Position numbers and translations under genes: made by a program. From positions 33,112 to 97,111 of the IMG/VR virus record IMGVR_UViG_3300002144_000072: a stretch of DNA of 64,000 nt; one strand, written 5' to 3'. Under the pieces are notes generated by a model. It had not been told where the DNA came from. It did not search any database and saw only the letters and a program-made list of their open reading frames with translations. Positions 59,988 to 61,803 of this stretch are shown piece after piece (position 1 is the first letter of the stretch; every line of letters begins with the position of its first letter). The DNA is from a virus.

Positions 59988-60572
59988 ATGTTTAATACCG
60001 GTGTGCATATTAGAGACGATTTAGTTCCTAACAAAGTTCAGGATCAACTTTGTCTGTTATTTGAAGATACTAGTTTTCCATGGTTTTTGTGTGAGCATAA
60101 AAATTTAACGTCAACGCCGCGAGAATATAATGCTTACAAATCTATTACTAACAATATTTTTGAATATACGCAGTTTACACATCAATTTATATCTAATGAA
60201 AAAATAAATTCTAAATTTGTAGACTACCCGTTATCGTTATTTCAAACTGTATGTACTGCACTTAATTTTAATTCATCAATTATTAGAATTAAAGCAAATT
60301 TGTGTCCAAAAGTTAACTTTGAAAATATCGATGCACACCAGACTCCACATGTTGATACTAATAGTAATCATTGGGTTATGATATATTACGTAAACGATAG
60401 TGACGGCGATACATTTTTATTTGATAATAATGATGTATCTATTGTTAAACATCGGATATCACCAAAAAAAGGAAGAATATTAATGTTTAACGGTAATACC
60501 CTACATGCAGGAATGCATCCTAGGAATCATGATTACAGGATAGTTATTAATTTTAACTTTATTAAATTATGA
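59988..60572 (+). CDS. 2OG-Fe(II) oxygenase
   Basis: PHVD, IYYVNDSDGDT, PKKGR..F.G..LHAG..P....RIVINFN. Confidence 0.85.
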   Translation: MFNTGVHIRDDLVPNKVQDQLCLLFEDTSFPWFLCEHKNLTSTPREYNAYKSITNNIFEYTQFTHQFISNEKINSKFVDYPLSLFQTVCTALNFNSSIIRIKANLCPKVNFENIDAHQTPHVDTNSNHWVMIYYVNDSDGDTFLFDNNDVSIVKHRISPKKGRILMFNGNTLHAGMHPRNHDYRIVINFNFIKL

Positions 60573-60802
60573 GTACAGACAGCCACGATAACATGATTGC
60601 TGCCTTCCAGGCATATTTCAAGTGGCAGACTAATTTTGAATACGGGCACAGCGACGAGGCAGGAATTAAGGCACGGTATTGGCTATCAGAAATACGCAAT
60701 GAGGCAAGTAAACGGCGAGTAGAAATACAAGAAAAAAGGCAAGAACGAAACAAAACCAGAATCCGCAAGATAGGCAGGCCCCGCAAGATAACTAAAGAGT
60801 GA
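60569..60802 (+). CDS. Small basic hypothetical protein
   Basis: 77 aa with an Arg/Lys-rich C-terminus; coupled to both neighbours. Confidence 0.7.
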   Translation: MSTDSHDNMIAAFQAYFKWQTNFEYGHSDEAGIKARYWLSEIRNEASKRRVEIQEKRQERNKTRIRKIGRPRKITKE

Positions 60803-61233
60803 CATGGACATACAAGACTCAACTCGTAGAACAAATTCCAGAGGGCTACATTGGCTTTGTATATCTAATCACGAATCTCACTACCGGGCAAAAGTACATA
60901 GGCAAAAAACTTGCACAATTCAAACGTACTAAACCACCTCTCAAAGGCAAAAAACTTAAACGTAGATCAACAGTTGAAAGCGATTGGCGTACATATTGGG
61001 GTTCCTCCGATAGACTTAACGCAGACATCGAATCACTAGGCCCGGAAAACTTCACAAGAGAAATTTTATATTACTGCACTTCTAAAGCAGAACTAAGCTA
61101 CATTGAGGCAAGAGAGCAGTTTGAACGCAAAGTACTCGAAACAAACGAGTATTATAATGGCATTATTAATGTCAGAGTTGGCGGATCAGACAAGCTAAGG
61201 CAAGCTCTACTAGAGCACAAAAAGGCCATTTAA
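60799..61233 (+). CDS. Minimal GIY-YIG nuclease-family protein
   Basis: GFVYLITN...KYIGKK, YWGSS, F.REIL, YIE, YYN. Confidence 0.8.
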   Translation: MTWTYKTQLVEQIPEGYIGFVYLITNLTTGQKYIGKKLAQFKRTKPPLKGKKLKRRSTVESDWRTYWGSSDRLNADIESLGPENFTREILYYCTSKAELSYIEAREQFERKVLETNEYYNGIINVRVGGSDKLRQALLEHKKAI

Positions 61234-61244
61234 TCACCAAATAA

Positions 61245-61730
61245 GCCCGCACTGGCGACTGTTATAGTGCCCGCAATCCGTTCTGATGTGTGACGGTATG
61301 GAATTCCTCTGTTGGTGAAGGGGTTGTAAATCACTATCCTTAACAGGACGTTGATCGGATACGCCTACGTACAACCGGTTTGATTTGCAAGGAAAAAATT
61401 AAAAAGGCTAAATGATGGGAGAAAGACCCACGGTTATTATGCAAGACAGCATTTGTGTAATAATCCGCCGTTGTTAAAAGACAGAATGAGTAGGTACCGG
61501 ACAACCGCCTACGTTAAGCAACTTGCTTTATAGTTCAAATGCTGTGTGTACTGTGCGACTCGCATAATGCTTCTTAGCCCGCAAGGGCTAAGTGTGACTG
61601 AACGATCTGCATAATACTTAAATTGCTTCGCAATTAATAATACTTCATAATAAAACACATTAAATACTTCTAGTAAGAAAAAAGTGCTTTGAGCGTTAGC
61701 GAAAAAGCAAATGAGCTTTAGCTCATTATT
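61245..61730 (+). ncRNA. Candidate large structured non-coding RNA (unclassified)
   Basis: About 600-nt gap with no listed ORF, more than 10 hairpins, many G-U pairs on the + strand, a GCAA tetraloop and a loop-distal pseudoknot. Confidence 0.6.
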
Positions 61731-61803
61731 ACAATAAATAAATTATAATACTATTCACAATGAATAGTTCAGAATACAACATTATCGAATCAGTGTGATA
61801 GTG

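What the first reader, a model, noticed from the sequence alone, without database searches (positions are those of the whole stretch)
60569..61740. Minimal GIY-YIG nuclease followed by a ~500-nt ornate structured RNA: candidate phage ribonucleoprotein system
Seen: the only large non-coding gap in a tightly packed window starts right at the GIY-YIG stop codon and folds extensively. Elements include GCACUG/UAGUGC (61249-61270), CCGUU/GACGG and CCUCU/AGGGG. A 10-bp stem UUGUAAAUCA/UGAUUUGCAA (61324-61390) closes a junction containing UCCU-UAAC-AGGA and GAUCGG/CCGGUU. Further stems are UUAUUAUGCAA/UUGUGUAAUAA (61434-61463), GUAGG..CGG-ACAA-CCG-CCUAC (61490-61512), AAGCA/UGCUU, UGUGCG/CGCAUA, CUUAGCCC-GCAA-GGGCUAAG (61573-61592, GNRA loop) and AAUGAGC/GCUCAUU. 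Deviations from Watson-Crick pairing in these stems are mostly G-U on the + strand, which points to selection on RNA rather than DNA. The 144-aa protein has only the catalytic domain plus a very basic insert (KRTKPPLKGKKLKRR) and lacks the C-terminal DNA-binding domain of I-TevI/Seg-type homing endonucleases. Inference: the RNA could supply scaffold or specificity, by analogy to HEARO/omegaRNA with IscB, or be an independent large phage ncRNA such as GOLLD or ROOL. The basic 77-aa ORF upstream could be a third component.
Basis: partly seen in the sequence, partly recalled or inferred. Interest (0 to 1): 0.9.

Follow-up and report, generated by a model that had tools for sequence, protein, structure and literature searches.

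The report
Extended Polynucleobacter-1 twin-box phage RNA
The roughly 500-base gene-free stretch behind a small nuclease gene of this uncultured T4-like phage encodes a real, triply knotted non-coding RNA whose first third is the catalogued but unexplained Polynucleobacter-1 motif; the nuclease is a fixed neighbour rather than a demonstrable partner, and what the RNA does is still unknown.

Summary
Window 61234-61733 (+) is a conserved structured RNA of about 500 nt. Its first 147 nt (61244-61390) match Rfam RF01718, Polynucleobacter-1, at 63.4 bits against a cut-off of 37. The remaining ~340 nt match no Rfam family but are conserved in well over 100 viral contigs. On 23 relatives, 77 pairs in 15 helices are 96% paired, 47 pairs carry compensatory changes, and no shuffle of 500 reached this. 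There are three pseudoknots; one uses the bases at the GIY-YIG stop codon. A 7-nt word (GCAUAAU here) occurs twice, and the two copies are identical in every relative checked. The RNA ends in a GA-motif hairpin and a terminator, followed by a T4-type late promoter and hypervariable late genes.

The ribonucleoprotein reading is not supported:
- Full-length relatives sit free-standing in Polynucleobacter chromosomes that lack this nuclease.
- Phages Melnitz and P-SSM2 have the nuclease but no detectable RNA.
- In two contigs another gene separates nuclease and RNA.

The link to the upstream gene family was already noted in 2010. This scan has met the same RNA family many times on other DNA. Function is unknown. 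My best guess is a trans-acting scaffold or decoy read through the twin boxes.

The parts
60569..60802 (+). 77-aa basic ORF (b77), with an AT-hook-like GRPRK near its C-terminus. Its stop overlaps the GIY-YIG start.
   Evidence: ORF list. No Pfam or PHROG family. Homologues of 34-77% identity lie between gp46 and GIY-YIG in about half of 80 related loci.
60799..61233 (+). 144-aa stand-alone GIY-YIG nuclease of the SegE type, PHROG 447, often mis-annotated as 'NAD synthetase'.
   Evidence: PF19835, E 2.4e-35, full profile. PHROG 447, E 3.4e-39. AF2 pLDDT 90.7; best fold match is the I-TevI catalytic domain 1MK0. 75-86% identical in syntenic relatives, more conserved than gp46. 44% identical to P-SSM2 PSSM2_218.
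61234..61240 (+). 5' strand of pseudoknot PK0 (UCACCAA), directly after the stop codon. It pairs with 61312-61318.
   Evidence: Perfect 7-bp complement here. Compensatory variants in relatives: UCGCCAA/UUGGCGA, (A/U)GCGGU/GCCGC(U/A) and AACGGU/GCCGUU. In the last form the strand is the last two codons of GIY-YIG.
61244..61390 (+). 5' domain, the Rfam RF01718 Polynucleobacter-1 motif: hairpins 61249-70, about 61276-97 and about 61306-23, plus a three-way domain closed by 61324-33/61381-90.
   Evidence: cmscan 63.4 bits (cut-off 37), E 4e-11, model 1-141 of 141. Helices 1-4 carry compensatory changes.
61312..61318 (+). 3' strand of PK0 (UUGGUGA), in the loop of the third RF01718 hairpin.
61406..61469 (+). 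Middle domain: GGC/GCC closing stem (61406-08 with 61467-69), hairpin UGGG/CCCA (61416-30) and the long hairpin 61432-61466.
   Evidence: Helices 5-7. All 10 pairs of the long hairpin show compensatory changes. The closing stem does not vary, so covariation says nothing about it.
61447..61452 (+). PK1 5' strand (CAGCAU), in the loop of the long hairpin. It pairs with 61539-61544 (AUGCUG).
   Evidence: A1 columns 229-233 with 385-389: 100% paired, 3 of 5 pairs with double changes. Six pairs on A2.
61470..61474 (+). PK2 5' strand (GUUGU). It pairs with ACAAC 61501-61505 in the loop of hairpin 61490-61512.
   Evidence: A1 columns 252-256 with 295-299: 96.5% paired, 3 of 5 pairs with double changes, for example GUCAU/AUGAC and GUCAG/CUGAC.
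61484..61536 (+). Stem GAAU/GUUC (61484-87 with 61533-36). It encloses hairpin GUAGG/CCUAC (61490-61512) and a variable insertion site; here the insertion is the small hairpin 61516-28.
   Evidence: Helices 10 and 11. Relatives carry 0 to about 150 nt at the insertion site.
61558..61569 (+). Twin box 1: ACUC-GCAUAAU-G. The 7-nt word is at 61562-61568.
   Evidence: The word is identical to box 2 in all 23 aligned relatives and across at least 13 word variants in about 170 loci.
61573..61592 (+). GNRA-capped hairpin between the two boxes (CUUAGCCC-GCAA-GGGCUAAG).
   Evidence: Helix 12. The stem is replaced wholesale in other groups.
61605..61616 (+). Twin box 2: AUCU-GCAUAAU-A. The word is at 61609-61615.
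61622..61634 (+). Hairpin AUUGC-UUC-GCAAU.
   Evidence: Helix 13: 4 of 5 pairs with compensatory changes.
61685..61709 (+). GA-motif hairpin: outer stem UGCUUU/AAAGCA around the nearly invariant GAGCG-UUAG-CGA.
   Evidence: GAGCG..AGCGA is conserved in groups 1, 2 and 4 and in bacterial copies. It served as the search pattern. Compensation in the outer stem was seen by eye only, because that part of the alignment is gapped.
61710..61733 (+). Terminator-like hairpin AAUGAGC-UUUA-GCUCAUU followed by a U-rich tail; the likely 3' end of the RNA.
   Evidence: Helix 15: 4 of 7 pairs compensatory. The U-tract is clearer in relatives, for example GCUCGUUUUU. The consensus scan called it on the - strand only.
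61734..61740 (+). ATAAATA, a T4-type late-promoter-like box ahead of the variable genes.
   Evidence: NTAAATA lies within 110 nt after the GA hairpin in about 100 distinct loci, 5-100 nt before the next ATG. Its identification as a late promoter rests on knowledge of T4 (TATAAATA).
61833..62704 (+). Two variable late ORFs (214 aa and 76 aa). They share an N-terminal leader (MRINDILTE.. and MRISDLIED..). They are neighbours of the RNA, not part of it.
   Evidence: The leader M(K/R)(I/V)x(D/E)I(L/I)xE is conserved in about 100 loci, while the rest of the protein varies from 90 to 707 aa.

Best explanation
Window 61234-61733 (+) is the gene for a full-length member of a large structured RNA family. 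Rfam RF01718, Polynucleobacter-1, describes only its 5' third.

Shown:
- The RNA is about 500 nt long and has 15 covarying helices.
- It has three pseudoknots.
- A 7-nt word occurs twice and the two copies are always identical.
- It ends in a GA-motif hairpin and a terminator-like hairpin.
- Its first pseudoknot strand sits at the GIY-YIG stop codon, and inside the last two codons in some relatives.

Inferred from that: the RNA is made as the 3' tail of the gp46-(b77)-GIY-YIG transcript. It is not transcribed from a promoter of its own between gene and RNA. It is insulated from the late genes downstream by the terminator and a late promoter.

Inferred mechanism, not shown: it is a stable, trans-acting scaffold or decoy RNA. 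The knotted fold gives stability and shape. The two identical exposed words bind two copies, or the two halves, of one partner. That partner differs between lineages and has not been identified. Hosts of the Polynucleobacter type carry their own free-standing copy with a different word (AGCGAAA). The phage copy may therefore imitate or compete with a host or mobile-element RNA. The GIY-YIG nuclease is a conserved upstream neighbour, not a required partner.
For: Identity:
- RF01718 at 63.4 bits, full model.
- RF01718 at 70-118 bits in relatives and in bacterial copies.

Structure:
- 96.1% of cells are paired, against 80.7% in shuffles and 34-45% in slid controls.
- 47 of 77 pairs have double changes.
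- Covariation score 0.477 against 0.181, reached by 0 of 500 shuffles.
- PK1 and PK2 are counted. PK0 has three compensatory forms.

Reach:
- My model R1 of the uncatalogued part scores 150-252 bits in group-1 loci. It scores lower but lies at the same place and strand in the other groups.
- About 62 of 80 loci found through the GA-hairpin pattern share the synteny gp46, GIY-YIG, RNA, baseplate hub.
- There is one copy per viral record.

Twin boxes:
- The two copies are identical in all 23 aligned RNAs.
- At least 13 word variants exist.

Independence from the nuclease:
- Five bacterial genomes have the RNA and no PF19835 (control 75).
- There the RNA is free-standing on its own strand beside a DUF6641 gene and tyrosine-recombinase genes.
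- Melnitz and P-SSM2 have the nuclease and no RNA.
- L091 and L103 have a gene between the two.

Operon layout: terminator plus NTAAATA before the variable genes in about 100 loci.
Against: - Function and partner are unknown. The trans-acting scaffold or decoy mechanism is inference only.
- No complement to the word was found in the RNA, the window or the host genomes.
- Transcription is not shown. Metatranscriptome contigs from three studies do bridge GIY-YIG into the RNA. But they are contigs at low depth, and DNA carry-over cannot be excluded.
- In phages the RNA always lies in the same operon as the nuclease. That is what a functional link would also look like.
- Some relatives carry a GCGGUUUUUU run right after the stop codon. 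It could act as a terminator, which would argue for a separate start.
- Bacterial copies must have their own promoter, so a 3'-UTR origin is not general.
Confidence: 0.5

Rival explanations
1. Nuclease-RNA system. The RNA binds the domain-only GIY-YIG nuclease, perhaps together with the basic 77-aa protein. It supplies scaffold or target specificity, with the twin boxes acting as guide-like segments, by analogy to the omega RNAs of TnpB and IscB.
For: - The RNA starts at or over the nuclease's stop codon, as omega RNAs of TnpB overlap the 3' end of tnpB (the TnpB layout is from general knowledge).
- The nuclease has no DNA-binding domain.
- The nuclease is more conserved than gp46 and always lies upstream of the RNA in more than 100 phage loci.
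- The boxes are short, variable between lineages and duplicated.
- In bacteria the RNA lies near another short DNA enzyme, a 188-aa tyrosine recombinase.
Against: - The RNA occurs in five bacterial genomes with no PF19835 homologue.
- The nuclease occurs without the RNA in the complete Melnitz and P-SSM2 genomes and widely in cyanophages.
- A 296-aa gene separates the two in L091 and L103.
- No target complementary to the boxes was found, either single or as an inverted repeat.
- The phage's own DNA encodes the boxes, so self-targeting would need an extra discrimination rule.
Confidence: 0.08
2. Purely cis-acting 3' UTR. The structure protects the operon's mRNA from 3' exonucleases. Alternatively it couples to translation termination of GIY-YIG through PK0, with no role as a free RNA.
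For: - It sits at the 3' end of the operon, before a terminator.
- PK0 uses the stop-codon region, so a terminating ribosome would have to melt it.
Against: - Some 500 nt with three knots, invariant junction motifs and concertedly varying twin boxes is far more than a stabiliser needs.
- The same RNA is a free-standing gene, divergent from its neighbour, in bacterial chromosomes.
- In L091 it follows a different gene.
Confidence: 0.15
3. Replication-origin element. The transcript forms a persistent R-loop at the AT-rich spacer and primes DNA synthesis, as at T4 oriF and oriG.
For: - An AU-rich variable spacer (61635-61684) follows the core.
- The locus lies at a junction of oppositely transcribed modules next to baseplate genes, as T4 oriF (uvsY) does (general knowledge).
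Against: - The constraints are on RNA pairing, including G-U pairs and tertiary knots, not on DNA sequence.
- Bacterial chromosomal copies sit in integrative islands, not at origins.
Confidence: 0.07
4. Recombination anchor or attachment target. The conserved RNA gene mainly serves as a homology block or integration site next to which variable cargo is exchanged. This would resemble tRNA and tmRNA genes next to genomic islands.
For: - Hypervariable genes begin right after it in phages.
- Many contigs break within 150 nt after GIY-YIG.
- In bacteria, tyrosine-recombinase genes lie 0.4-5 kb downstream and the content between varies.
Against: - This would be a by-product of being a conserved RNA gene. 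It does not explain why the structure and twin boxes are conserved.
- No direct repeats of the RNA's 3' end were looked for beyond 3 kb, and none were seen within that range.
Confidence: 0.1

Closest known systems
Polynucleobacter-1 RNA motif (Rfam RF01718; Weinberg et al. 2010, Genome Biol 11:R31, PMC2864571)
   Same: - Window 61244-61390 matches the full 141-position model above the curated cut-off.
- It lies downstream of the same gene family (GOS11034/PSSM2_218-like) that the authors noted.
- Freshwater and estuarine origin.
- The flanks printed in the authors' own Stockholm file already contain the twin boxes, the GA hairpin and the terminator.
   Different: - The catalogued motif is only the first ~30% of the RNA.
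- The pseudoknot with the stop-codon leader, the middle domain, two further pseudoknots, the twin boxes and the 3' hairpins are not in the Rfam model.
- The authors found no example in sequenced purified phages. Here it lies in a T4-like virus record and in more than 100 viral contigs.
- The upstream gene is now identified as a GIY-YIG nuclease.
- Other phage groups keep the twin-box core but have a 5' domain that RF01718 does not detect even at E 0.5.
Large ornate bacterial and phage ncRNAs of unknown function (GOLLD, ROOL, HEARO, OLE)
   Same: Size class of 400-800 nt, many helices and pseudoknots, association with phages or mobile elements, no known function (general knowledge).
   Different: No match to any of their Rfam models anywhere in the window. 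No tRNA neighbours. The twin identical words are a feature of its own.
Omega RNAs / reRNAs of TnpB and IscB (HEARO) nucleases
   Same: A structured RNA encoded next to, and overlapping the end of, a small nuclease gene, with a short segment that varies between lineages.
   Different: - The nuclease family differs: GIY-YIG, not RuvC/HNH.
- Co-occurrence is not obligatory in either direction.
- The variable word is internal and duplicated, not a terminal guide taken from flanking DNA.
- No target was found.
SegE / I-TevI-type GIY-YIG homing endonucleases
   Same: GIY-YIG catalytic domain: PF19835 at E 2.4e-35, and a fold closest to the I-TevI catalytic domain.
   Different: - No linker or DNA-binding domain; 144 aa in all.
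- Fixed synteny, and higher conservation than the core gene gp46. Sporadic, selfish distribution would look different.
- It forms its own family of about 148 aa, PHROG 447.
- Whether it resembles T4 EndoII (DenA) functionally was not tested. Its Melnitz homologue lies just downstream of the nrdB gene, separated by one small ORF.

Membership tests
Rfam RF01718 Polynucleobacter-1 RNA | Covariance-model score at or above the curated gathering score (37 bits), over the whole model | tested here: met
   63.4 bits, E 4.1e-11, model 1-141 of 141, + strand, 61244-61390.
Rfam RF01718 Polynucleobacter-1 RNA | The model's helices are kept by compensatory changes in relatives | tested here: met
   Helices 1-4: 12 of 20 pairs have double changes, 93-100% paired. 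The second and third hairpins were aligned only by cmscan, not counted.
Rfam RF01718 Polynucleobacter-1 RNA | Location downstream of a GOS11034 / PSSM2_218-like gene (context noted by the authors) | tested here: met
   The upstream GIY-YIG is 44% identical to PSSM2_218, E 1e-25.
SegE-type GIY-YIG nuclease (Pfam PF19835) | Profile match above the cut-off, and the GIY-YIG fold | tested here: met
   121.9 bits against a cut-off of 25. AF2 pLDDT 90.7. Foldseek top hit 1MK0, the I-TevI catalytic domain: probability 0.97, target-normalised TM 0.66, but E 0.12.
SegE-type GIY-YIG nuclease (Pfam PF19835) | Catalytic residues (Tyr of GIY, Tyr of YIG, Arg, Glu, Asn) present | tested here: inconclusive
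   Y22, Y33, R56 and E88 are invariant, and N120 invariant or nearly so, in the family alignments. Their equivalence to I-TevI Y6, Y17, R27, E75 and N90 was judged by eye, not by a residue-level superposition.
Homing endonuclease of the Seg / I-TevI kind (two-domain, mobile) | C-terminal DNA-binding domain, and sporadic, mobile distribution | tested here: not met
   The profile covers residues 3-123 of 144 and no other domain is present. The gene has fixed synteny and 75-86% identity in 80 loci.
RNA-guided nuclease system (omega-RNA type) | Obligatory co-occurrence of the RNA and the nuclease | tested here: not met
   RNA without nuclease in 5 bacterial genomes. Nuclease without RNA in Melnitz and P-SSM2. 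A gene inserted between them in L091 and L103.
RNA-guided nuclease system (omega-RNA type) | A variable guide segment within a conserved scaffold, with complementary targets | tested here: inconclusive
   A variable 7-nt word exists, in two copies. No complementary partner was found in the RNA, in the window or as inverted repeats in host genomes. Targets in other genomes could not be searched.
RNA-guided nuclease system (omega-RNA type) | Physical binding of the RNA by the nuclease | not testable with these tools
   No tool here models RNA-protein binding. This needs pull-down or gel-shift experiments.
Intrinsic terminator at the RNA's 3' end | G+C-containing hairpin followed by a U-tract on the RNA strand | tested here: inconclusive
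   The hairpin 61710-27 covaries (helix 15). The U-tract is weak in the window (AUUAUUAC) and clear in relatives (GCUCGUUUUU). The consensus scan called it on the - strand only.

The most novel reading that the evidence does not exclude
The twin-box RNA is a programmable recognition module carried by phages and integrative islands. Its two identical, fast-changing 7-nt words would base-pair with a nucleic-acid target, for example the two arms of a site read on opposite strands. That would steer a neighbouring DNA enzyme that lacks its own DNA-binding domain: the GIY-YIG nuclease in phages, and the 188-aa tyrosine recombinase in Polynucleobacter islands.
Probability: 0.04. Interest if true: 0.95.

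Novelty: new variant of a known kind. Interest (0 to 1): 0.55.

Why it matters
RF01718 has been an orphan since 2010. It was described as a 141-nt motif from 16 representatives, with no example in a purified phage. Here it turns out to be the 5' domain of a roughly 500-nt, triply pseudoknotted RNA. That RNA is common in uncultured T4-like phage records from aquatic metagenomes. It also occurs in integrative islands of Polynucleobacter-type bacteria, which may be their hosts. This puts it in the small class of large, ornate bacterial and phage RNAs whose complexity suggests a sophisticated biochemical role.

The twin, always-identical, fast-changing words give a concrete handle for experiments. 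One can mutate one or both boxes, or look for what they bind. The work also shows that the tempting 'RNA-guided GIY-YIG nuclease' idea is not what the comparative data support.

Tried and rejected
1. Other Rfam families in the gap, including group I introns, tmRNA, GOLLD, ROOL and HEARO: none, even at E up to 5. No tRNA or tmRNA genes.
2. A sigma-70-type promoter between GIY-YIG and the RNA: none. The TATTATAAT inside GIY-YIG is the YYN codon run and has no -35 box.
3. A Watson-Crick partner for the twin-box dinucleotide inside the RNA: none by mutual information or diagonal scans. The only recurrent contact is a 3-bp UC-x with UGA next to the central hairpin.
4. The UGUGCG/CGCAUA hairpin and a two-state switch on box 1 versus box 2: the register is not conserved.
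5. Box 2 plus flanks is a 9-nt complement of 61435-61443 in the window. Relatives do not share this.
6. Inverted-repeat DNA targets of the word:
   - 0 in the window.
   - At or below the control in five host-type genomes.
7. Invertible-segment repeats around the bacterial RNA next to the small recombinase: only chance-level repeats.
8. DUF6641, the bacterial neighbour, in five phage records: not found. The records are 27-46% complete and no positive control was run.
9. PDB relatives of the nuclease by sequence or profile: none.
10. Literature searches:
    - 'Polynucleobacter-1' found only the 2010 paper.
    - 'DUF6641' found nothing.
11. Metatranscriptome contigs:
    - They cover the locus and bridge GIY-YIG into the RNA.
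    - They cannot show ends, strand or level, and parts without cover mean nothing.
12. My model R1 did not hit the bacterial copies. Their homology rests on RF01718 plus the shared twin-box, GA-hairpin and terminator layout.
13. The cross-group alignment A5 was too gapped to count pairs of the central hairpin.
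Full report
**What is in the sequence**

The window is part of a 97-kb IMG/VR virus record of a T4-like phage. CheckV estimates the record at 27% complete. Around the finding, on the + strand, lie:
- a gp46/Rad50-like gene (58209-59987);
- a 2OG-Fe(II) oxygenase gene (59988-60572);
- a basic 77-aa ORF (60569-60802);
- a 144-aa ORF (60799-61233).

A 599-nt stretch without conserved ORFs follows. After it come two ORFs of 214 and 76 aa (61833-62704) and, on the - strand, a baseplate-hub gene.

The 144-aa protein is a complete SegE-type GIY-YIG domain and nothing more:
- PF19835 at E 2.4e-35, profile positions 1-123 of 123; PHROG 447.
- An AlphaFold2 model with mean pLDDT 90.7.
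- The closest solved fold is the I-TevI catalytic domain (1MK0, probability 0.97, but E 0.12).
- The 'very basic insert' folds as a beta-hairpin and is conserved across the family, including invariant K54, R55 and R56 in one alignment. It is a family trait.

**The first third is a known family**

Rfam places 61244-61390 (+) in RF01718, Polynucleobacter-1, at 63.4 bits against a gathering score of 37, over the full model. Nothing else in the gap matches any of the 4227 Rfam families, even at E up to 5. There are no tRNA or tmRNA genes.

The supplement of the describing paper (Weinberg et al. 2010, PMC2864571) makes three statements:
- the motif lies mostly downstream of genes of family GOS11034, possibly homologous to PSSM2_218 of cyanophage P-SSM2;
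- its 3' half is not always detected;
- no example was found in a purified phage.

PSSM2_218 is a 145-aa protein annotated 'NAD synthetase'. It is 44% identical to the window's GIY-YIG protein, E 1e-25.

**The whole gap is one conserved RNA**

A search with the nuclease found at least 598 viral contigs; the best 80 were kept. Where the contig is long enough, the next + ORF starts about 500 nt after the nuclease's stop, although that ORF varies from 161 to 707 aa. The gene order is the same throughout: gp46, often b77, GIY-YIG, gap, variable ORFs, baseplate hub on the other strand.

I aligned the gap of 23 distinct relatives that carry the RF01718 domain (A1). I then counted a hand-curated structure on it:
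- 77 pairs in 15 helices.
- 96.1% of cells paired, against 80.7% after shuffling and 34-45% when partners are slid by 1-3 columns.
- 47 pairs with changes on both sides.
- Covariation score 0.477 against 0.181, reached by 0 of 500 shuffles.

Two long-range pairings are part of that count:
- PK1: the loop of the long hairpin (61447-52) with 61539-44.
- PK2: GUUGU 61470-74 with ACAAC 61501-05. Variants such as GUCAU/AUGAC and GUCAG/CUGAC occur.

A third pairing, PK0, joins the seven bases right after the stop codon (UCACCAA, 61234-40) to the loop of the third RF01718 hairpin (UUGGUGA, 61312-18). Relatives show UCGCCAA/UUGGCGA, (A/U)GCGGU/GCCGC(U/A) and AACGGU/GCCGUU. In the last form the 5' strand is the last two codons of the nuclease gene. 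The fold therefore begins at or inside the end of the coding region, which implies co-transcription with the nuclease gene in these phages.

G-U pairs (about 6% of paired cells by my tally), GNRA loops, the strand-specific Rfam hit and the terminator orientation all favour the + strand. Folding energy of the single sequence is not remarkable (z -1.6 and -2.6).

**The 3' part and the twin boxes**

After the middle domain come two similar units that flank a GNRA-capped hairpin (61573-92):
- ...ACUC-GCAUAAU-G, with the word at 61562-68;
- ...AUCU-GCAUAAU-A, with the word at 61609-15.

The two words are identical to each other in all 23 aligned RNAs while differing between them. Across about 170 loci I found at least 13 variants:
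- ACAUGAA, GGAUAAU, AGAUAAU, AGAUGAU, GCAUAAU, ACAUGAU and rarer ones in phages;
- AGCGAAA in bacteria.

I found no Watson-Crick partner for the variable letters, either inside the RNA or elsewhere.

Downstream follow, in order:
- a hairpin with a UUC loop (61622-34);
- an AU-rich spacer of variable length;
- a nearly invariant GA-motif hairpin (GAGCG-NNAG-CGA inside a stem that appears by eye to covary, 61685-709);
- a covarying hairpin with a U-rich tail (61710-33);
- ATAAATA (61734-40).

In about 100 distinct loci an NTAAATA box lies within 110 nt of the GA hairpin and 5-100 nt before the next start codon. From knowledge of T4, that is a late-promoter-like box. The RNA is thus closed off from the genes that follow. 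It is not their leader.

**Variants of the family**

A covariance model of the uncatalogued middle and 3' part (R1) gave these scores:
- 150-252 bits in group-1 loci;
- 62-71 bits in a second group;
- 10-33 bits in the largest group.
All hits lie at the same place and on the same strand.

Those other groups show no RF01718 match even at E 0.5. The twin-box core is therefore the common denominator, and the RF01718 domain is one of several 5' domains. The window belongs to the full-length RF01718 type.

**Is the nuclease a partner?**

Three results argue against a dedicated pair.

1. *The RNA exists without the nuclease.*
   - The flanks printed in the 2010 alignment already show twin boxes and the central hairpin in Polynucleobacter NC_009379.1. 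The GA hairpin and terminator hairpin are visible in a metagenome scaffold of the same alignment.
   - A pattern from that core found 13 stretches in bacterial assemblies, mostly Polynucleobacter, some on contigs of 0.7-2.2 Mb.
   - Twelve of them carry RF01718 at 70-104 bits, 250-400 nt upstream on the same strand.
   - There the RNA is a free-standing gene, divergent from a DUF6641 gene.
   - A 188-aa tyrosine-recombinase gene lies 0.4-1.2 kb downstream in 10 of 13 loci. In locus L214 further downstream genes include an AAA-type ATPase gene and a second integrase-family gene. The neighbourhood looks like an integrative island.
   - Five such genomes hold 1-2 RNA copies each and no homologue of the nuclease, by protein query or by PF19835. 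The same family search does find the gene in the window's own record.

2. *The nuclease exists without the RNA.* The complete genomes of Methylophilales phage Melnitz (66% identical protein, just downstream of nrdB) and P-SSM2 have no RF01718 or R1 match.

3. *The two can be separated.* In L091 and L103 a 296-aa gene lies between the nuclease and the RNA.

In favour of a link:
- the strict synteny in phages;
- the overlap with the stop codon;
- the nuclease being more conserved (75-86%) than gp46 (51-80%).
These fit a fixed operon neighbour as well as a partner.

**Expression**

Contigs from metatranscriptome runs of three studies cover the locus. They bridge the nuclease gene into the RNA:
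- X15, 60885-61657, no mismatches;
- X16, 60644-61398;
- X17, 60720-61386;
- X19, 60813-61294.

They are low-depth contigs, so they show neither ends, strand nor level, and DNA carry-over is possible.

**Most likely mechanism, and rivals**

Shown: a structured RNA of about 500 nt belonging to the RF01718 family, with three knots and two identical exposed words.

Inferred: it is transcribed as the tail of the early or middle operon and ends at its own hairpin terminator.

My best guess at the mechanism is inference only. It is a stable trans-acting scaffold or decoy. Its twin words bind two copies, or two halves, of one lineage-specific partner. The phage copy perhaps imitates the RNA of host islands.

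Rivals, with my odds:
- a purely cis-acting 3' UTR (0.15);
- a recombination anchor or attachment site (0.10);
- the nuclease-RNA system (0.08);
- an origin primer (0.07).

**Relation to earlier notes of this scan**

The scan has noted this RNA family many times on other DNA, under names such as 'twin-box' or 'extended Polynucleobacter-1' phage RNA. My independent tests agree with those notes on four points:
- the RNA is real;
- its first third is RF01718;
- the twin boxes are present;
- host chromosomes carry copies without the nuclease.

A note on this same window (e1-5988084) proposed PK1 and the duplicated units. PK1 is confirmed by covariation. Its idea of a switch is not supported.

**Verdict**

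- Observation: confirmed.
- Interpretation: partly supported. A large independent ncRNA, yes; a ribonucleoprotein with the nuclease, no.
- Novelty: a new variant, in the sense of a much extended architecture and a new host range, of a known orphan family.

Noticed in passing
window 61833-62477 and 62474-62704; about 100 related loci: The genes right after the RNA share a conserved N-terminal leader, M(K/R)(I/V)x(D/E)I(L/I)xE (here MRINDILTE and MRISDLIED). The rest of each protein is hypervariable, 90-707 aa, and sits behind an NTAAATA late-promoter-like box. This resembles the capsid-targeting sequence (MKTYQEFIAE, cut at LxE) of T4 internal head proteins. They may be injected proteins that diversify quickly.
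   Followed up: partly
window 59988-60572: The 2OG-Fe(II) oxygenase gene between gp46 and the 77-aa ORF is absent from most relatives, where b77 follows gp46 directly. Contigs from two RNA libraries carry the form without it: joint 59978>60569 with GTAGA in between. It is a recent insertion, or a deletion polymorphism in the population.
   Followed up: partly
window 60569-60802: The 77-aa protein ends in KTRIRKIGRPRKITKE. That is an AT-hook-like GRP core in a basic tail, which suggests minor-groove DNA binding. It matches no Pfam or PHROG family.
   Followed up: no
L009, L010, L012, L014, L029, L033, L036, L040, L042, L052, L060, L069, L072, L076, L078-L080: About a fifth of the 80 related contigs end within 0-150 nt after the GIY-YIG stop, inside the RNA's 5' domain. 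Assemblies seem to break there, which suggests strong strain-level diversity starting at the RNA.
   Followed up: no
L091 4369-5259 (same in L103): A 296-aa ORF of unknown function is inserted between GIY-YIG and the RNA. Its start codon directly follows the nuclease's stop.
   Followed up: partly
L204-L223 (Polynucleobacter and related assemblies), e.g. L214 1161-7980: The bacterial copies of the RNA have a conserved neighbourhood. A divergent DUF6641 gene lies upstream. A 188-aa catalytic-domain-only tyrosine recombinase lies 0.4-1.2 kb downstream. In L214 further downstream genes include several hypothetical ones, an AAA-type ATPase and a second integrase-family gene. Two genomes hold two copies; in one they lie 18 kb apart.
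   Followed up: partly
window 62100-62400: The 214-aa ORF has an Ala/Pro-rich low-complexity middle. RNA-library contigs show in-frame length variants there: 24 nt and 12 nt left out at 62138 and 62339. They also show very high summed depth in one run, probably from unrelated low-complexity matches.
   Followed up: no
window 61435-61443 and 61608-61616: In this window only, box 2 with its flanks (UGCAUAAUA) is a perfect 9-nt complement of the 5' arm of the long hairpin (UAUUAUGCA). Relatives with the same or other words do not keep this, so it is probably chance.
   Followed up: yes
phage records in GenBank: Homologues of this GIY-YIG protein in 258 phage records are annotated variously as 'NAD synthetase', 'homing endonuclease', 'SegE' or 'hypothetical protein'. 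'NAD synthetase' (PHROG 447) looks like a propagated mis-annotation.
   Followed up: partly
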